Shown here in pieces: positions 322 through 30,800 of a stretch of DNA of 64,000 nt (the first letter of the stretch is position 1; every line of letters starts with the position of its first letter). Source of the DNA: a virus (Duplodnaviria > Caudoviricetes). Made by a program: the position numbers and the translations under genes. Below the pieces are notes generated by a model. That model had not been told where the DNA came from, ran no database searches, and saw only the letters and a list, made by a program, of their open reading frames with translations. Location of the stretch: positions 96,001 through 160,000 of IMG/VR virus record IMGVR_UViG_3300014204_000111. One strand, given 5' to 3'.

Positions 322-464
322 TGTAATTAAAAGAATTTGTTATTTTCTTAAGATAGTTATCTGGAAAAAATATAAGGAAATTGAGGGATATAAAAGTTAT
401 CTGGTAACTATAAAAATGGTTAATCGTAACTTTGATGTAATTAAGAATTTTGAAAGGACACAAA

Positions 465-1226
465 ATGCAAATATTAAGTAATCAAATTTTATTTAAAGCA
501 ATTAGTGGAAGTCATCTTTATGGATTAAACGAGGAAGGGTCAGATATAGATTATGAGGGAGTTTATATGCCATCTCCTTCTGCACTTCTAGGTATTCGTG
601 CTCTTGAAAACGCAAAACATAGTAAGGGTACAGATGTTGATGTTACAATGTATTCTTTGCAGCAATATGGAAAGCTTTTAACAACTTCTAATTTCAAGGC
701 TCTTGAGACTTTATTTGCTACTGAAGATAAGATTATTCAATGTACACCAGAATTTAGAGCAGCTTTTATAGACCACAAAAAGTTATTTATATCTAATGAT
801 ATTCTTCAACCTTTACATGGTTTTGCTGTTTCTAATTTTAGTAGAATTGATAAATGTCCTTCTGATACGACCTCTCGTAGAATTTTGTTTGATAAATTAG
901 GATATGATTCAAAATATCTTATGCATTGTGTTAGGATTTTAAAAACAGGTGTACATCTAATTACTACGGGTGAATTTAAAGTAGATTGGAGCAATGAAAG
1001 AGAATATTTTTTAGATATCAAGCATGGACGTATTTCTAAACAAAAGGCTTTGCAAGAAGCAGAAGCTTGTAAATCATTAATTCTAACTATAATGCAGCAT
1101 GGTAAAAAGGAAAATTACAATACATATAACTATGTTAATGAACAGGTTATATGTATGAGCAAAAATTGGTTGTTAAATCTAAAGCAAGCGATGACTGATT
1201 TTATGCCTCTTAATTCTGAGCAATAA
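465..1226 (+). CDS. Pol-beta superfamily nucleotidyltransferase (RlaP/YcgL/T4 NrdC.11-like)
   Basis: GSHLYGLNEEGSDIDYEGVY (hGS-x9-DxD signature) plus C-terminal GYDSKYLMHCVR and LDIKHG motifs; ATG 465 follows AAAGGA. Confidence 0.85.
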   Translation: MQILSNQILFKAISGSHLYGLNEEGSDIDYEGVYMPSPSALLGIRALENAKHSKGTDVDVTMYSLQQYGKLLTTSNFKALETLFATEDKIIQCTPEFRAAFIDHKKLFISNDILQPLHGFAVSNFSRIDKCPSDTTSRRILFDKLGYDSKYLMHCVRILKTGVHLITTGEFKVDWSNEREYFLDIKHGRISKQKALQEAEACKSLILTIMQHGKKENYNTYNYVNEQVICMSKNWLLNLKQAMTDFMPLNSEQ

Positions 1227-2406
1227 AGGAGATAACTATGTTTTTAGTTTTTGTTGGCTTACTCTTTGCAGGTGTTATAGGTGCTGTTATAGCCTATGGT
1301 ATTCATGTCTTTGGCTCTTCAATTCAATATAGGTACGAAATATGGGAATATGAAGAGGAAGGATATGGAAGATTTTGGGTTCCAATGATAATTAATTATC
1401 GTCTATGGAAATCTGGAGAAACCGAAGAATGTAATAAAAATGGTTATGAATGGCTGGGGTTATTTAATTTTTCTGATAAAGATAAGATTATTGCCTCTTC
1501 AGCAGCAGATAGTCATCTTTGTGGTGGTATTATTATTTATTGGATTGATGAAGTGCCTCGTCTTAGTGAACAGCAAGCTATTGACAAAATTCATCAATAT
1601 ATCAAACAGGAACAAGATGATTATAACCATCAACATCCTAAGTTTATTTCAAAAAAGGTGATTTAAATGTGGCCTTTTAAAAGCAAGAAGAAAGATTCGA
1701 TATTACCAGATTATTCTATCAATAAGTTATTCGCTCAGATTGAGAAAGAGATGGATAAATACGAGATTATTATAGAGACTTTTAATGATGGTCGAGTACA
1801 ATTTTATTATACACACAATGGAAGTGGTTATGTATGGGGAGAGGATGAGCCAGAGAAAAGAAGAGTCAAAGGACAATCTTGTAGATGGACGGATAAAAAC
1901 GAAATGCTGGAAGATTTGAGGCAAACTATTATTAAAGCATTAAAAGGTCAATTTTCTGAGGTTAAATTATCTTCAGTGGCAGCAAAAGAGAATATTGATT
2001 ATATTCTTGGTAATATAGAATGTCAGGATAGATGTAAAATGATTGAAGGATATGTTAGAGAATTATGTTGTTCTAAGCTTGGAGCAGATGCTTTTAAAGA
2101 AGCATCAAGTGAGTAAAGAGCGTTTTCAAGGCTCTTTTTTATATGAAATTGATATTAGTTATTAATAACAAAGGAGAAATAGAAAATGTTTGGGATTATT
2201 TTTATTTCTATTTTATACTGTCTCGGAGTATATCTATGTTTATATTCATTATATACTTCTTTTAATCAAGTATCGTTGATTTCTTTTATAGTAGCATTAT
2301 TTTGGCCTCTATCTTTGATAGTTGGGATGATTATATTATTAATTTTGAAATTAAATAAATCCAGCAATTCTGTTTGAACAACGAAGCAGAGGGTATAATA
2401 AGTCAT

Positions 2407-2523
2407 GGGCGAGGGTTTGGAATCACCAGCGGAAGAGCGGAACGGATTCGACTTCCGTATACTCCATCACGGGGTATAACCGGGTTCAGCACCGCCAAGT
2501 GGGTTCGATTCCCATCTTGTCCA
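2407..2523 (+). ncRNA. Double tRNA-like-domain RNA (outer normal + inner permuted), both with G3:U70/A73 alanine identity
   Basis: Outer acceptor GGGCGAG 2407-13 / CTTGTCC-A 2516-23 and T arm GTGGG-TTCGATT-CCCAT. Inner T arm ACGGA-TTCGACT-TCCGT, then ATACTCC-A-TCAC-GGGGTAT. Own promoter at 2371-2399. Confidence 0.75.
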
Positions 2524-3256
2524 TTTATAGGAGATATAAATGTATATTCAAAATCGTCTTTTTGATACAATGAAAATGAGGACTATAACTAAACGAATAG
2601 TATTGCAATTAGCATATAAAGATTTTATTGCACGTTTTCGTTTGAGGTCTAGAGTTGGTCTTTCTTACAAAGTATATTACAAGGGTATTTGTATTGGAGA
2701 AGGAGACCAAAATGGATATTCAAGTAAGTTAACTTATAAGAATCATACAAGTCATCCTCTTGCTGATGAGTTAATTAAAATTCAAGATACATGTTGTGAT
2801 AAATGTTATTATCAATATAATATTGAGGTCTGGAATGGCAAATAATCCTTTAACGAATTATATTCATCAACTTAGCGATGTCAATGATAATTTTACAACT
2901 ACTCATATAGTTACTTATACAGGTACTCCTGAACAAATTTTTTTTGAAAGAATGAAAGAGGAATTAATGAAGAGACCTGAAGTTTCTTCTTCTAAAGAAG
3001 ATGAAGATTTCAAGTTGTATTGTTGTGGAATGGATATTAACTATCGTCTAAATAAAAAGAATTTTATGGTTTTTGATATTTGGAGTAATGATTATAAATT
3101 TTACTCTATCTATGTCAATTATACAGATAAAGAAATTGCAGATTGTAAAATAAAGATTTTTTGTAAGAATGATATCTGTGGTACATTCTTTTTGATTAAT
3201 GATTTTTTGGCTATTCTTAATGATTGTTTGGAAGTAATTAATTCAGAGGTGACAAA

Positions 3257-4817: not shown

Positions 4818-4930
4818 AATATTATTTACCCAATTATTCTACTATTCCGAAAATTACGGAATTGTTTCTTTTCTTGTCAAGGTTAAATTTTGGTAAAATG
4901 TTTGAAATCCTGTGGTCTGGGTATAATATA

Positions 4931-5030
4931 GGGCAAGAGAGGAACAGGTTCGAGTCCTGGCCTGCGGACGAGAGAAGCGATTCTTTCTATCCGTGGTGTA
5001 AGGTAGTTTAAACGGTGAACACTCTTGCTT
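4931..5030 (+). ncRNA. Circularly permuted tRNA-like RNA #1 (YrlA-like topology)
   Basis: Ends pair GGGCAAGAG/CTCTTGCTT; T arm CAGG-TTCGAGT-CCTG; closed, extended acceptor hairpin; TA then D arm GTTT-AAACGGT-GAAC; starts just after TATAAT. Confidence 0.8.
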
Positions 5031-6860: not shown

Positions 6861-7082
6861 GAACTAATATACTTAAATTTCATCTTTATTTGATTCGTAG
6901 ACATTTATCATATTTGCGTCGTCCTATTTTATTGAATCATAGAATTGATGATTTATTTTTATTAAGAAGAATAAATGGTCATACTCCTTGGTTTACAATA
7001 GGATGTAATAAAGTATGGAATTATATAAAAGAACTTTCTAAGGAGACGGTTTAGAGTCTGAAATTTTGGGTATAATAAAGTC

Positions 7083-7164
7083 TAGTGCGGAGATTCAGGT
7101 GCAAGTCCTGACTGCCCAGGCGAAAACGCCAGCAGATAGTTTAAGTAGCAGAATACCGCCATTG
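7083..7164 (+). ncRNA. Circularly permuted tRNA-like RNA #2
   Basis: GCGG/CCGC closing stem; T arm TCAGG-TGCAAGT-CCTGA; CTGC/GCAG acceptor capped by GGCG-AAAA-CGCC; TA-GTTT-AAGTAGCA-GAAT D arm; own promoter. Confidence 0.8.
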
Positions 7165-7196
7165 TTTAGTTCTTTATCTTTTTGGGTATAATACAA

Positions 7197-7270
7197 TGCG
7201 GGATAGAGAAGTAGTTACTCGGAAGGCTCATACCCTTCAAACGTGGGTGCAAATCCCACTCCCGCAACCA
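7197..7270 (+). tRNA. tRNA-Met(CAT)
   Basis: Acceptor TGCGGGA/TCCCGCA-A-CCA; anticodon arm GAAGG-CTCATAC-CCTTC; T arm GTGGG-TGCAAAT-CCCAC. Initiator/elongator/Ile2 class not resolved. Confidence 0.9.
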
Positions 7271-7583: not shown

Positions 7584-7900
7584 TATTAATAGGAGAAAAA
7601 TGATAAATGAATTTACATTATGTTGGCAGATATGATAATGGAGTTTTTACTGAATCACCTGTAAAAGAAATGTCTAAAGAAATATTTTGTGATGGAATGG
7701 GTAGTCAATGGAATTATACTTTTCGAGATATAGATTTTTTCTTTTATAGACATGGTTTTAAGATAGAAGTAGAAGATGATTTGGCTATTACAAAAATTGG
7801 AGATATCATTTATTATTTCACAATAAGTTAATTTTTGAAAGCTTGTTTGAAGTCCTGTCTATTGGGTATAATAAAGAGTGAAGGAAGGAACTCCTTTACG

Positions 7901-7993
7901 AATAGGAGAAGCAGGATTCGATTTCCTGCCATCGCGGATGTGATGTAGTTTAGTCTGGAATACGTCTGCTAGCAAGACAGTAAAACACCTATT
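7901..7993 (+). ncRNA. Circularly permuted tRNA-like RNA #3 with expanded D loop
   Basis: AATAGG/CCTATT; GCAGGA-TTCGATT-TCCTGC; CATCGC-GGAT-GTGATG; TA-GTTT...AAAC enclosing a GTCT/AGAC hairpin. Confidence 0.8.
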
Positions 7994-8033
7994 TTGAAAA
8001 GCCTGTTTAGAATCCAGTAAAACGGGTATAATA

Positions 8034-8148
8034 GTGTTGTAAAGGTAAAGATGGAAGTTCGAATCTTTTCTAGTGCGTTAAAACCCTGCGGTTCTTGCGG
8101 GGGAGCGTTAGTAGCATAAATGGAATAATGCGTTACTGAATTTGACAC
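8034..8148 (+). ncRNA. Circularly permuted tRNA-like RNA #4
   Basis: GTGTTG/TGACAC plus GGTAA/TTACT interrupted terminal stem; GGAAG-TTCGAAT-CTTTT; CTAGTGC/GCGTTAG acceptor with inner hairpin; TA-GCAT-AAATGGAATA-ATGC D arm. Confidence 0.8.
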
Positions 8149-24613: not shown

Positions 24614-24735
24614 AACTAAAATTTGGCTTGACACCAAGGGCTTCATATGATAATGAGCTGAGCATAGGACATAAGAGTGTTTAACCAGATTTTCACTCAG
24701 AAAGTGTTTGAAAGCCTCTTCACCGGGTATAATAA

Positions 24736-24815
24736 GATACCCTAGAGACTTGGGTGCGAATCCCAACTGCCCGTCGCAGGGTACATCGTCTAAGAGTAGG
24801 ATACTAGGCTGTATT
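24736..24815 (+). ncRNA. Circularly permuted tRNA-like RNA #5
   Basis: GATAC-CCTAG / CTAGG-ct-GTATT bulged terminal stem; TTGGG-TGCGAAT-CCCAA; TGCCC/GGGTA; TC-GTCT-AAGAGTA-GGAT D arm. Confidence 0.85.
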
Positions 24816-25129: not shown

Positions 25130-25228
25130 CCAAGAAACCTGTTAGAACCTTGAAAGTTGGGGTATAATTAAGAGTGAGGGAAAGAAAGCTTCCCAAGTTT
25201 GAAAGGCTGCTTTAGCGCCAAAGATTGA

Positions 25229-25301
25229 AAGCGGAAGGTGCGGGTGTAAGGCCCGTGTGTCAGTAACTCTGGCAGTAGACTAAATAATAGGTCAGCCGCT
25301 T
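25229..25301 (+). ncRNA. Circularly permuted tRNA-like module #6
   Basis: AAGCGG/CCGCTT; GCGGG-TGTAAGG-CCCGT; TGTCAG/CTGGCA; TA-GACT-AAATAATA-GGTC. Confidence 0.7.
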
Positions 25302-27850: not shown

Positions 27851-30800
27851 ATGAATTATATAAGAAATAAGTTTTTAAATAAAATTAGATATAATATTAT
27901 TTGTAAAGCTCTGAAAGTAGATTCCTTAGAAAATATGTTGGTTGAAATAAAAAGGTACATATTTCCTCATAGATTATTGGTCTTAGATAGTATATATAAA
28001 ATATTTGTTGAAAAAGGATTAAGAGGAACTACCATAAAGCAAGATTGGAAATATATGGTTGATATGGTGAGATTAGGGACTCCTAAATAAAAAGGTGGTT
28101 AGAAAATATGTATAACTATATAAGTGATTTATGGAAAGGTAAAAAGAATGGATGTTTGAGAGCCTATTGGAATAAATTAAAATATCACTTGAACAAGAAT
28201 GTTTAACACAATGAAAACAATTAGATTCCATATATATAAATTATTTTATTTGCAAATAGTTCCTTGTAGTAATGTGAGAAAATATAGATATATAGATAGT
28301 CCATATCTTTTTAAACAAAAAATTGGATTAGCTAATGTTTTTAGGATGATAAAAAAAGGAGCTTTAAAATGTCTTTAAATCAATTTCTAAGTTTTATTCG
28401 TATATATTTTGCTAGAAATAATACTTGTTTTGCTCCTAGTTTTATTCCTAATAATACCTTTAAGAATGGTTTTGAAAAAATTTGGCTGGCCTTCCTTTTT
28501 ATATTATGAATCTTAGAGTAACATATAAAAAATGGCTTTATTATAGAGGTAATGTGCAGAACGAAATATATAATAAAGAGACCTGGAATCTTTTTCTTTC
28601 AAAAAATGGTGAAAAGAGGTTTCCATGATATTTATATTAAAAATTATCAGACATCGCTTATATGTACGATATTATAATTATTTAGCAGAAACATTGAGTG
28701 CTCGTGAATTTTTGTCTGATTCTCGTGATTGGACTAATAAAGGAGTTATAAATGTATGGGAACAAATAAGACGACGTTTTATGTAAAGTTTACTGGACTT
28801 ATTAGAAATAGAATCTATTTATGTTTTTATAAGAAAAAGTGTGGATTTATACTTATTGAGGAAAACAAATTCTATCCTTTGAGTACCTGTTGGTCTAAAG
28901 TTATTAAGAAAGTTTCACACAATGATTAAAATGACCCAAATTATTAGATATCAAATATATTTAGTTTATGATAAAAATGTTAAAAAATCCATTGCATTCA
29001 AAAAAGTACCTTATCGTGATATGAATAGTATGGGGTATGATTGGAATAGATTAGGAATAGCAAATATATTTGATAGTTTAAAAACCAATGTACCATGTGA
29101 AAAATATACTAGACTTATTATACATGGATATTAATTTAAAAATTATTGCTTTTACCATCTATAATAAAAGATGGAAAAGTCATTACTATAAATTATACCC
29201 AGATAGTAATATACAACCTTATTCGGAAAAGATTTCTTCTATAAGAAAAAAGGCTGTTGCTAGATGGCATTTAAGTTTGACTCTATGTTGGGAGGAATTG
29301 ACATGCTCTTCATCTTAAAAGTTATTAGGCATCGTTTATATTATAGAGTATGGAGTCCTTACTGGTCAATTACACATAGTGATAATTATTCTACTTCTAT
29401 AAGTTGGAACTGCTGGGTAAATAATGGACTATCACGCTTATTAGGAAAATTAAGATGAAAATATTCAAAATTATTCATTATAGATTCTATCATCTATTAT
29501 ATAGTAGGGGTATTATCAATATAAGAATTAATATAAAAAATTATTCATCTAATAATAGTTTTATTTGGTTCAATATAGGTATATCACGTATTTTACAGCA
29601 GCTAAAAACAGGAAAATTTTACTAATATCATGTCATTAAATCTATTTTTAAATCTGATTCACTTATATATCTCAAGTCATAACGGACACCAAGATACAAA
29701 AGACCATAGCTCTTTATCTTATAAAATAATGGTAATGGCTCAATTAAAAAACAAACATAATCTTATTACTTTCTCTATGGTTGGAACATATAAGATGTCA
29801 TACTTATGGTGGATAGAAAACAGGAAAAGAGATGAAATTTCTAAGAGAAATTAGGAATAAAATTTATTATGCTATTTCACCGGAGCTTGGTTATTTTAAA
29901 ATGTATGTGTCTCTTAAAAATGCCTTTATAGCGTGTAAATGTATATATTTGGGTGAAGAAGGTACTTTGTTGGAAAAATTTTATGACCTATTAAATAAAG
30001 AGAACAATGATTCTTTACGGGAGTGAAATGCAATATCTTCATAAAATTAACACTGAGTTACATAATCTTTATTGTCTTTTATTACATCTTCGCGCGCGTT
30101 TTTACTTTCCTGACAAAAATTTGTCAGAAAAATGGAGTTATATTGTTAAACATGTACAAAAAATTAATGAAGAGTTATAACAAAAATTGTTGTATTAATA
30201 TTTTATTAAGGGTAGATGAGAAAATGAGAAATAACAAATTATGAGAACAAAAAGAAACATAATTGATGTGATATATTGGAATATTGTAAATTTTGTATTT
30301 TCTTATAATTTAGATGGTTATTCAGATTTTCGATGGGGAATGTATCTAAAGAATCGGTGGAATTTTATAAAAAAATATTATAAACATAGGTCTTAAAAGA
30401 TGAATTTTACAACTCGTATTAAAAAAATTATTTATAAATTAAGATATAATACTTTTATGGCCCCCCATGCGGTAAAAGAAATATTATCAGATTGGCATAT
30501 TTTAATACAAAGAGCTAGAAGAGTTAAAGTAATCAAAGCATATGAACGAGCTTCTAAACAAAGATTTATTTGCAGACTTTTTTTTATTCATGTTATAAAG
30601 GTGATGAGAAGACATGCTTTTCTTAAGAGTAATTAAATTTATTATATATAAATATAGCTATAATCAGATATATTATACCAAATTGTTTAATAATCAATTA
30701 AATAAAGCTTTTTATCAGTGTTTATCTTTAGCACTTATAAAAAAGAGGTATCATATAAAAAAGAGGTATTATATTGACAAATAATTTATTTTATAAAATT

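What the first reader, a model, noticed from the sequence alone, without database searches (positions are those of the whole stretch)
2407..2523. 117-nt RNA made of two tmRNA-like tRNA domains, both with alanine identity
Seen: the outer acceptor GGGCGAG/CTTGTCC-A and the inner permuted acceptor GGGGTAT/ATACTCC-A both have G1-C72, G2-C71, G3:U70 and A73. Each has a 5-bp T arm and a stemless GG-containing D loop (GGTTTGGAATCAC; AACCGGGTTCAGC), joined by a short GCGG/CCGC helix. There is no anticodon and no tag reading frame. Established: G3:U70 is the AlaRS determinant, a stemless D loop is the hallmark of the SmpB-binding tmRNA TLD, and two-piece tmRNA genes have this permuted arrangement. Inference: a bivalent TLD acting as an SmpB/AlaRS/EF-Tu sponge, or a tag-less rescue RNA that alters trans-translation.
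Basis: partly seen in the sequence, partly recalled or inferred. Interest (0 to 1): 0.87.

Follow-up and report, generated by a model that had tools for sequence, protein, structure and literature searches.

The report
Two-headed alanine tRNA-like phage RNA
A 221-kb uncultured phage carries, behind its own promoter, a 117-base RNA gene that folds into two interlocked tRNA "top halves", each bearing the signals for alanine charging but no anticodon or tag message; it belongs to an apparently undescribed phage RNA class related to the ribosome-rescue RNA tmRNA.

Summary
Window 2407-2523 (+) is a 55% GC island in a 30% GC phage genome. It contains two 7-bp acceptor stems (outer 2407-2413/2516-2522; inner, permuted, 2471-2477/2459-2465), both with G1-C72, G2-C71, G3:U70 and A73. 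It also has two 5-bp T arms with TTCGAnT loops and two stemless GG-containing D loops. A phage promoter of a type used 34 times on this strand ends 7 nt before G2407.

ARAGORN and Rfam call nothing at threshold. The only tmRNA-like sub-threshold hits in the 221-kb genome lie in this element.

I found 17 further non-identical RNAs with the same crosswise layout, 16 in IMG/VR phage contigs and one in a metagenome contig. Covariation in all four helices is strong, and 16 of 18 sit in tRNA arrays. One is a paralogue of its phage's own permuted tmRNA, and one lies 6 nt after a tmRNA gene.

The window's copy is a topological variant: it has a split 4-bp GCGG/CCGC bridge instead of a local hairpin. 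No close relative was found, so that bridge is untested.

The function (SmpB/tmRNA mimic, or tag-less rescue) is inferred, not shown.

This scan noted the same class twice before on other phage DNA. I found no paper or Rfam family describing it.

The parts
2372..2399 (+). Phage promoter: GTTT (2372-2375), 15-nt spacer, GGGTATAAT (2391-2399). The expected transcript start is about 2405-2407.
   Evidence: GTTT-N13-16-GGGTAT occurs 34 times on the + strand, 2 times on the - strand and 1.4 times in shuffles. The listing shows the same motif a few nt before tRNA genes. Two sigma-70-family genes are in the phage.
2407..2413 (+). Outer acceptor stem, 5' strand GGGCGAG
   Evidence: Pairs 7/7 with 2516-2522. 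Differs only at pair 7:66 from the phage tRNA-Ala acceptor stem (5' strand GGGCGAT).
2414..2426 (+). D loop 1, stemless, GG-containing (belongs to the outer domain)
   Evidence: Sequence. Same length as class D loops of 10-16 nt. Resembles the tmRNA D loop.
2427..2441 (+). Linker holding two GCGG copies (2429-2432, 2437-2440), the candidate 5' strand of the bridge helix
   Evidence: Complementary to CCGC at 2492-2495. It is one of several near-isoenergetic pairings and is untested by covariation.
2442..2458 (+). T arm 1 (ACGGA / TTCGACT / TCCGT), part of the inner domain
2459..2466 (+). Inner acceptor 3' strand ATACTCC plus discriminator A2466
   Evidence: Pairs 7/7 with 2471-2477. Aligned by Rfam tmRNA_permuted.
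2467..2470 (+). Spacer TCAC. Either the loop closing the inner stem, or a segment removed by tRNA-end processing.
   Evidence: Class spacers are 4-12 nt, and 4 of 17 start with CCA.
2471..2477 (+). Inner acceptor 5' strand GGGGTAT
2478..2490 (+). D loop 2, stemless (belongs to the inner domain)
   Evidence: Aligned to the tmRNA_permuted D-loop region. Matches 8 of 13 positions of the L032 tmRNA D loop.
2491..2498 (+). Linker with CCGC (2492-2495), the candidate 3' strand of the bridge helix
2499..2515 (+). T arm 2 (GTGGG / TTCGATT / CCCAT), part of the outer domain
2516..2523 (+). Outer acceptor 3' strand CTTGTCC plus discriminator A2523. The next bases are TTT; no CCA is encoded.
2530..2845 (+). 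Downstream gene: GGAG ribosome-binding site (2530-2533) and a 101-aa ORF (2540-2845). It has no promoter motif of its own, so it is probably co-transcribed with the RNA.
   Evidence: No family match.

Best explanation
This is a real phage small-RNA gene, transcribed from its own promoter starting at about G2407.

Fold. The RNA forms two tmRNA-type tRNA-like domains with swapped strands. The 5' acceptor strand and D loop of the first half combine with the T arm and 3' acceptor strand of the second half (outer head). The reverse combination forms the inner head. A short bridge helix probably joins them. In effect, the closed P2 hairpin of a TLD-only mini-tmRNA is replaced by a second, permuted TLD.

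Inferred steps:
1. Host RNase P and CCA-less 3'-end processing (RNase Z type) followed by the CCA-adding enzyme trim the outer ends. They probably also cut the TCAC spacer. This would give a base-paired two-piece RNA of about 60 + 53 nt with two CCA ends.
2. Host AlaRS charges both heads through G3:U70 and A73.
3. The charged or uncharged heads engage host SmpB (and EF-Tu). They would either compete with host tmRNA, blocking tagging of proteins during infection, or deliver alanine to stalled ribosomes without a tag.

My odds by step: real structured two-headed RNA gene, about 0.9. Alanylated, about 0.6. Acts through SmpB/trans-translation, about 0.4.
For: Structure:
- All four helices are perfect and the pattern is absent from shuffles.
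- The element is a 55% GC island in 30% GC DNA.

Expression signal:
- The promoter belongs to a 34-member phage regulon and ends 7 nt before G2407. The phage encodes sigma factors.

Class:
- Seventeen further non-identical RNAs share the layout. Such RNAs make up 36% of viral pattern hits but 4-5% of hits in bacterial genomes and metagenomes (Fisher p 2e-8).
- In the model-based alignment, 95.7% of cells are paired against 72.8% in shuffles. 15 of 24 pairs change on both sides. Covariation is 0.596 against 0.136, reached by 0 of 500 shuffles. G3:U70 is kept in 13/15 outer and 14/14 inner stems.
- 16 of 18 lie in same-strand tRNA arrays.
- CCA is encoded at the inner junction in 4/17 (p 1e-4) and at the outer end in 6/17. 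This argues that both 3' ends are used.

tmRNA kinship:
- Rfam tmRNA_permuted aligns to the inner junction, and RF00023 gives its best genome-wide hits here.
- The L032 element is a paralogue of that phage's permuted tmRNA.
- The L017 element starts 6 nt after a tmRNA gene and shares its acceptor sequence type.
- The DS6A TLD-only tmRNA has the same module order with a closed P2. A similar TLD-only molecule is reported to inhibit tmRNA strongly, perhaps by titrating SmpB (PMC4131195; PMC11915505).

Processing:
- About a third of this phage's own tRNA genes also lack CCA, so the host must be able to mature CCA-less ends.
Against: - There is no direct evidence of expression, processing, charging or SmpB binding.
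- Scores against tmRNA models are far below threshold: 16 and 19.8 bits against a cut-off of 47. DS6A's TLD scores 43 bits.
- Most class members' D loops lack the tmRNA UUCGAC motif.
- Seven of 10 other carriers also encode a genuine tmRNA. That sits oddly with a pure tmRNA-inhibitor role. The association is not above that of size-matched tRNA-rich phages (6/9 against 4/8, p 0.64).
- The outer acceptor stem is almost identical to the phage's own tRNA-Ala. A tRNA-Ala origin or mimicry is therefore equally possible for that head.
- In this copy the bridge helix is only 4 bp and ambiguous. An alternative outer 5' strand exists. Neither end encodes CCA.
- The extra stability of the two-piece duplex over its monomers is not unusual: -12 kcal/mol, matched or beaten by 19 of 200 shuffles.
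Confidence: 0.45

Rival explanations
1. Alanine acceptor-arm mimic unrelated to SmpB. The two heads imitate tRNA-Ala acceptor/T minihelices. They would serve one of three roles. They could be a decoy or sponge for something that acts on tRNA acceptor ends, such as host anti-phage toxins that modify or cut CCA ends, or AlaRS itself. Or they could be a ribosome-independent donor of alanine for an aminoacyl-tRNA-dependent transferase.
For: - The outer acceptor stem differs from the phage tRNA-Ala stem only at pair 7:66 and shares its G5:U68.
- The L043 member keeps a true D arm and an anticodon-stem-like helix, so it looks tRNA-derived.
- The element lies in a region with an RlaP-type RNA-repair nucleotidyltransferase and many other promoter-driven tRNA-like RNAs.
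- By established knowledge, G3:U70 minihelices are good AlaRS substrates.
Against: - Stemless D loops and the permuted junction are tmRNA features.
- L032 and L017 tie the class to tmRNA genes.
- No candidate partner enzyme is conserved next to the class. I did not cluster neighbouring proteins systematically.
Confidence: 0.25
2. Cis-acting processing signal. The tRNA-like fold sits between the promoter and the 101-aa ORF at 2540. Its main role would be to be cut out by RNase P and RNase Z, setting the 5' end and stability of the downstream mRNA. The released RNA would be a by-product.
For: - There is no promoter motif between the RNA and the ORF, and the ribosome-binding site starts 7 nt after A2523.
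- The same promoters drive tRNAs and mRNAs in this region.
Against: - A processing signal does not need two heads, or an alanine identity set conserved in both stems across the class.
- Class members sit inside tRNA arrays, not before conserved ORFs.
Confidence: 0.1
3. Decaying remnant. The element would be a fusion of a permuted tmRNA fragment with a tRNA-Ala fragment that is no longer functional.
For: - This phage has no tmRNA gene.
- This copy lacks CCA and the central hairpin of the main class.
- No close relative is available to show purifying selection.
Against: - All 24 pairs of the four helices are intact, both identity sets are intact, and both T loops are canonical.
- An intact promoter is placed to start at G2407.
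- GC content is kept 25 points above background.
Confidence: 0.08
4. Protein-coding. The overlapping 63-aa ORF (2374-2565, TTG start) or the 55-aa minus-strand ORF would be the real gene.
For: The frames are open.
Against: - No Pfam or PHROG match for either ORF.
- The + strand ORF starts inside the promoter's upstream element, has no ribosome-binding site, and overlaps the next gene's start.
- The GC-rich composition alone explains the lack of stop codons.
- The RNA structure is conserved as a class while its sequence is not.
Confidence: 0.02

Closest known systems
TLD-only ('CDS-less') mini-tmRNA of mycobacteriophage DS6A (PMC4131195; PMC11915505); located here at NC_023744 28478-28560
   Same: - Phage-encoded, with no tag reading frame.
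- Acceptor stem with G3:U70 and A73, a stemless D loop with UGG, and a T arm.
- Module order is acceptor-D loop-P2-T arm-acceptor.
- It is the molecule type reported to inhibit tmRNA, perhaps by titrating SmpB.
   Different: - DS6A has one head, and its P2 helix is closed by a loop. Here the far end of the short bridge opens into a second, circularly permuted head.
- DS6A scores 43 bits against RF00023, against 16 bits here.
Circularly permuted (two-piece) tmRNA genes, Rfam RF04321 (Caulobacter type; phage examples such as OM43 phage Melnitz, PMC9004378)
   Same: The inner junction has the same order: T arm, 3' acceptor strand, discriminator, short spacer, 5' acceptor strand, D loop. In class member L032 this part is nearly identical to that phage's real permuted tmRNA.
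   Different: - There is no coding piece: no resume codon, tag frame or pseudoknots.
- The flanks that would form the long P2 helices instead form a second alanine acceptor/T arm.
- The score is 19.8 bits against the cut-off of 47.
Two-headed alanine tRNA-like RNAs of large phages
   Same: - Crosswise pairing of two half-units into two acceptor/T minihelices.
- G3:U70 and A73 in both heads, canonical T loops, and a length within the class range of 104-118 nt (this copy is 117 nt).
- Phage origin, in the neighbourhood of tRNA genes.
   Different: - Most members have one short unit (D loop only) and one unit with a local 4-6 bp hairpin, giving a single five-way junction.
- This copy, and perhaps L043, have two intermediate units whose extras can only pair with each other. 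This gives two three-way junctions joined by a bridge.
- The class model scores it 41.8 bits, and only with the alternative 5' register.
tRNA-Ala (this phage's own, genome 82702-82776)
   Same: The outer acceptor stem is identical at 6 of 7 pairs, including G3:U70 and G5:U68. The T loop TTCGACT is shared with T arm 1.
   Different: The element has no D stem and no anticodon arm. It is not called by ARAGORN or by the Rfam tRNA model.

Membership tests
tmRNA (Rfam RF00023 standard; RF04321 permuted) | tRNA-like domain with the alanine identity set (G3:U70, A73), a T arm and a stemless D loop | tested here: met
   Present twice.
tmRNA (Rfam RF00023 standard; RF04321 permuted) | mRNA-like domain with a resume codon and a tag reading frame ending in a stop codon | tested here: not met
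   ARAGORN tmRNA mode finds none. The only open frame through the element is the unsupported 63-aa ORF.
tmRNA (Rfam RF00023 standard; RF04321 permuted) | Reaches the curated covariance-model score (47 bits) | tested here: not met
   19.8 bits for RF04321 and 16 bits for RF00023.
tmRNA (Rfam RF00023 standard; RF04321 permuted) | Binds SmpB and is charged by AlaRS | not testable with these tools
   Needs biochemistry. The phage has no SmpB or AlaRS gene of its own.
TLD-only mini-tmRNA (DS6A type) | Little more than one TLD: a single acceptor stem closing on itself, with P2 closed by a loop | tested here: not met
   There are two heads with swapped strands and no closed P2.
tRNA | Cloverleaf with D stem and anticodon arm; detected by ARAGORN or Rfam RF00005 | tested here: not met
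   There is only a 20-bit sub-threshold tRNA-Sec alignment.
Two-headed alanine tRNA-like phage RNA (class defined here) | Four helices in the order outer 5' strand, T arm, inner stem (3' strand first), T arm, outer 3' strand, with crosswise acceptor pairing | tested here: met
Two-headed alanine tRNA-like phage RNA (class defined here) | G3:U70 and A73 in both heads | tested here: met
.
Two-headed alanine tRNA-like phage RNA (class defined here) | One D-loop-only unit plus one unit with a local central hairpin | tested here: not met
   The gaps between acceptor strand and T stem are 28 and 21 nt with no local hairpin. A split bridge is possible instead.
Two-headed alanine tRNA-like phage RNA (class defined here) | Embedded in a same-strand phage tRNA array | tested here: inconclusive
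   It lies 3.2 kb after the last tRNA of the main array and 4.7 kb before tRNA-Met and tRNA-Pro. It is on the same strand and among other promoter-driven small RNAs, but not flanked directly by tRNAs.

The most novel reading that the evidence does not exclude
Large phages make a self-complementing, two-piece RNA with two functional alanine-accepting heads and no decoding or message part. Both heads would be charged, and the particle would act bivalently on the host's ribosome-rescue machinery. For example, it could hold two SmpB molecules, or rescue stalled ribosomes without tagging. That would be a new way for viruses to take over translation quality control. The window's copy would show that the two heads can also be joined tmRNA-style through a shared P2-like helix.
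Probability: 0.35. Interest if true: 0.9.

Novelty: new variant of a known kind. Interest (0 to 1): 0.78.

Why it matters
tmRNA-SmpB is the main ribosome-rescue system of bacteria. Phage-borne tmRNAs are known, but their role in infection is not.

A conserved, anticodon-less, tag-less RNA with two alanine heads would be a compact natural tool aimed at AlaRS, EF-Tu, SmpB or the stalled ribosome. It is easy to test: it is only 117 nt, and the host enzymes involved are universal.

It would also be a rare natural case of a strand-swapped, pseudo-symmetric tRNA-like fold. Standard annotation (ARAGORN, Rfam) misses it completely, so phage tRNA islands probably hide many more.

Tried and rejected
- **Kin of this phage.** The bridge helix therefore could not be tested by covariation.
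- **Class members against GenBank phages.** No match.
- **Loose 5'-unit pattern.** The pattern without G53 gave no window-like relatives.
- **RNA data.** No RNA holder is listed. Contigs from two other metagenomes cover only neighbouring bits, not the element.
- **T4 species 1 and 2 stable RNAs.** Checked as possible analogues; they are not alike.
- **AcrIIIA1 paper.** Not relevant.
- **Co-occurrence with tmRNA genes.** 7/10 carriers against 5/24 non-carrier pattern hits gives p 0.015. This vanishes when only records of 75 kb or more are compared (6/9 against 4/8, p 0.64). I do not use it as support.
- **SmpB gene.** Present in only 1 of 11 carrier records.
- **Thermodynamics.**
  - The unconstrained MFE keeps the outer and inner acceptor stems but breaks the T arms. 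Its z-score is only -2.0.
  - The gain in stability of the two-piece duplex is not significant.
- **MAFFT alignment of the class.** It mis-registers the 5' strands, so I used a model-based alignment instead.
- **Not run.** The large protein search for the 63-aa ORF. Mao et al. 2009 is not held in the library.

Full report
**Setting**

The window is bases 96001-160000 of a 220,861-bp IMG/VR phage record with direct terminal repeats. The DNA is about 30% GC and genes run almost entirely on the + strand. ARAGORN finds 20 tRNA genes, 18 of them upstream of the window and two at 7197 and 7508. The element at 2407-2523 is the strongest GC island in its neighbourhood at 55% GC. It lies between a 63-aa membrane-like ORF (2186-2377) and a 101-aa ORF (2540-2845).

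**The observation**

- The outer stem GGGCGAG/CTTGTCC and the inner, permuted stem GGGGTAT/ATACTCC each pair 7/7. Both have G1-C72, G2-C71, G3:U70 and an A discriminator.
- Each stem is followed or preceded by a 5-bp T arm with a canonical TTCGAnT loop, and by a 13-nt stemless GG-containing loop.
- The core pattern occurs once in the window and never in 100 shuffles.
- ARAGORN calls no tRNA or tmRNA here, and Rfam has nothing at gathering score.
- At relaxed threshold, Rfam's tmRNA_permuted model aligns to the inner junction. That junction runs T arm, 3' acceptor strand, spacer, 5' acceptor strand, D loop. The score is 19.8 bits, E 0.034.
- The standard tmRNA model gives its best hits in the whole 221-kb genome inside this element (16 and 12 bits).

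Three caveats apply.
- The GCGG/CCGC bridge is 4 bp. GCGG occurs twice, and several alternative central pairings lie within about 1 kcal/mol when the four main helices are fixed.
- A second candidate 5' strand, GGAAGAG at 2431-2437, pairs 6/7 without G3:U70. It is what my class model and Rfam's tRNA-Sec model pick.
- Neither end encodes CCA.

**A promoter fixes the 5' end**

GGTATAAT occurs 52 times on the + strand against 7 on the - strand, with about 11 expected. Forty of the 52 have GTTT or GATT about 20 nt upstream. The stricter motif GTTT-N13-16-GGGTAT occurs 34 times on the + strand, 2 times on the - strand and 1.4 times in shuffles.

Copies sit a few bases before tRNA-Leu, tRNA-Phe and tRNA-Met, before several other GC-rich small-RNA-like islands, and before many ORFs with ribosome-binding sites. 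The phage encodes two sigma-70-family proteins.

One copy lies at 2372-2399 and ends 7 nt before G2407. So the element is very probably its own transcription unit. The transcript would start at or within a base or two of the outer acceptor's first G. This favours 2407 over 2431 as the 5' strand.

The next ORF has no promoter motif of its own, so it is probably co-transcribed and separated by 3' processing of the RNA.

**A class of such RNAs**

Pattern scans used only T loops, TCCA, a short spacer and GGG, with no complementarity imposed. I then screened the hits by script for inner and outer 7-bp pairing (for the scans; 25, 27, 38, 56 for the screen).
- Sixteen of 44 distinct viral hits pass. 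Only 6 of 124 bacterial-genome hits and 4 of 110 metagenome hits pass, and most of those are marginal (Fisher p 2e-8).
- With L009, L032 and metagenome contig L259, this gives 17 further non-identical RNAs of 104-118 nt. Their acceptor sequences are highly diverse but always complementary.
- The outer 5' strand was not part of any pattern. Even so, it starts with GGG opposite TCC in all of them.

I built a covariance model from five members and realigned 15 matches.
- 95.7% of cells pair, against 72.8% in shuffles.
- 15 of 24 pairs change on both sides.
- The covariation score is 0.596 against 0.136, reached by 0 of 500 shuffles. Sliding the partners by 1-3 columns destroys the signal.
- G3:U70 is kept in 13/15 outer and 14/14 inner stems.
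- This alignment is fitted to the model and includes two doubtful L008 rows.

Sixteen of 18 members lie inside same-strand tRNA arrays. CCA is encoded after the inner discriminator in 4 of 17 (p 1e-4) and after the outer one in 6 of 17. This argues that the inner junction is a real 3' end, so the RNA would mature as two base-paired pieces, as permuted tmRNAs do (PMC11915505).

**Relation to tmRNA**

- In L032 the element's first ~95 nt are nearly identical to the phage's own permuted tmRNA gene 700 nt downstream. That stretch covers the acceptor piece, spacer, 5' acceptor strand and D loop. After it, the tag-coding body is replaced by a hairpin, a T arm and a second 3' acceptor strand.
- In L017 the element starts 6 nt after a standard tmRNA gene. 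Its inner acceptor (GGGCTGA/TCGGTCC) resembles that tmRNA's (GGGCCGC/GCGGTCC).
- The window's two D loops resemble the tmRNA loop (UGG..UUC.AC) seen in L017, L032 and DS6A.
- The closest described molecule is the TLD-only tmRNA of mycobacteriophage DS6A. I located it at 28478-28560 of NC_023744: one acceptor stem, D loop, closed P2 hairpin and T arm, scoring 43 bits. A similar TLD-only RNA is reported to inhibit tmRNA strongly, perhaps by titrating SmpB (PMC4131195).
- Against this, the window's outer acceptor stem matches the phage's own tRNA-Ala at 6 of 7 pairs, so that head may be tRNA-derived.

**How the window's copy differs**

Most members have one unit with only a D loop (10-16 nt) and one unit with a local 4-6 bp hairpin. 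That gives a single five-way junction.

Here the gaps between acceptor strand and T stem are 28 and 21 nt, and neither holds a hairpin. The extra segments can pair only with each other. This would give two three-way junctions joined by a bridge, each junction laid out exactly like a tmRNA TLD with its P2 helix. Only L043 looks similar (CCGTC/GACGG).

No close relative of this phage could be found, so the bridge remains a prediction.

**What I could not support**

- The phage has no SmpB, AlaRS, class II CCA enzyme or tmRNA gene. Only 1 of 11 carrier records has SmpB. Any action must therefore go through host factors.
- Seven of 10 other carriers also have a bona fide tmRNA, against 5 of 24 non-carrier pattern hits. 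Among records of 75 kb or more the comparison is 6/9 against 4/8 (p 0.64), so I draw nothing from it.
- No RNA run holds the region.
- Thermodynamic scores are unremarkable.
- The overlapping ORFs have no family match. The + strand ORF starts inside the promoter without a ribosome-binding site.

**Verdict**

This is a genuine, promoter-driven small RNA gene with two alanine-type tRNA-like heads. It belongs to a phage RNA class that I found in no paper or Rfam family. Two earlier follow-ups of this scan reached the same class independently on other phages.

The most likely mode of action is mimicry of the tmRNA tRNA-like domain towards AlaRS and SmpB. That would either compete with host tmRNA or rescue ribosomes without tagging. 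This part is inference.

Noticed in passing
window 4920-5030, 7069-7170, 7865-7993, 8025-8148, 24726-24815, 25161-25301, 25603 onward: The same GTTT-N-GGGTATAAT promoter is followed within a few bases by GC-rich stretches. Those I read (4931-5030, 7083-7164) have T-arm-like hairpins and a terminal stem but no anticodon. ARAGORN does not call them. In the one parsed (4931-5030), the acceptor-like stem is closed by a hairpin and lacks G3:U70, so it is a different kind from the element studied here.
   Followed up: partly
whole genome; window 2372-2399 and about 30 other sites in the window: There is a phage promoter regulon of SigB/SigF-like form (GTTT, 13-16 nt, GGGTAT). It occurs 34 times on the + strand against 1.4 expected. 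It is concentrated between genome positions about 60 kb and 130 kb. Two sigma-70-family genes lie at genome 32.1 kb and 69.8 kb.
   Followed up: partly
genome 95069-95148 (about 850-930 bases before the window start): An apparent tRNA with anticodon loop CTTTTAA (Lys, UUU) and an encoded CCA lies between tRNA-Arg and tRNA-Lys. ARAGORN missed it. It surfaced as a weak tmRNA-model hit.
   Followed up: no
window 450-1226 (+): A 258-aa RlaP-family (RNA repair pathway, pol-beta-type) nucleotidyltransferase lies 1.2 kb upstream of the element. Pfam E is 1e-16 and PHROG nucleotidyltransferase E is 1e-39. Whether it acts on CCA-less ends is unknown.
   Followed up: no
L032:5614-5722 and L032:6311-6614: In another phage contig, the two-headed RNA and a complete permuted tmRNA gene share a near-identical ~95-nt 5' part. 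This shows a duplication route from tmRNA to the two-headed form. The outer stem of this copy has A3-U70 rather than G3:U70, and its 5' strand lies unusually far upstream.
   Followed up: partly
L017:5377-5882 (-): A standard tmRNA gene (tag ending ASLAAA) is followed after 6 nt by a two-headed RNA. They probably form one transcript processed by tRNA enzymes.
   Followed up: partly
genome tRNA genes: About two thirds of this phage's tRNA genes encode CCA and about one third do not. Several tRNAs begin only 4-9 nt after a promoter -10 box, so their 5' ends may be made by initiation with little or no leader.
   Followed up: no
window 1800-3200: Short contigs identical to parts of this stretch occur in a groundwater and a freshwater metagenome, besides the landfill sample that probably gave the record. 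They do not cover the RNA.
   Followed up: partly
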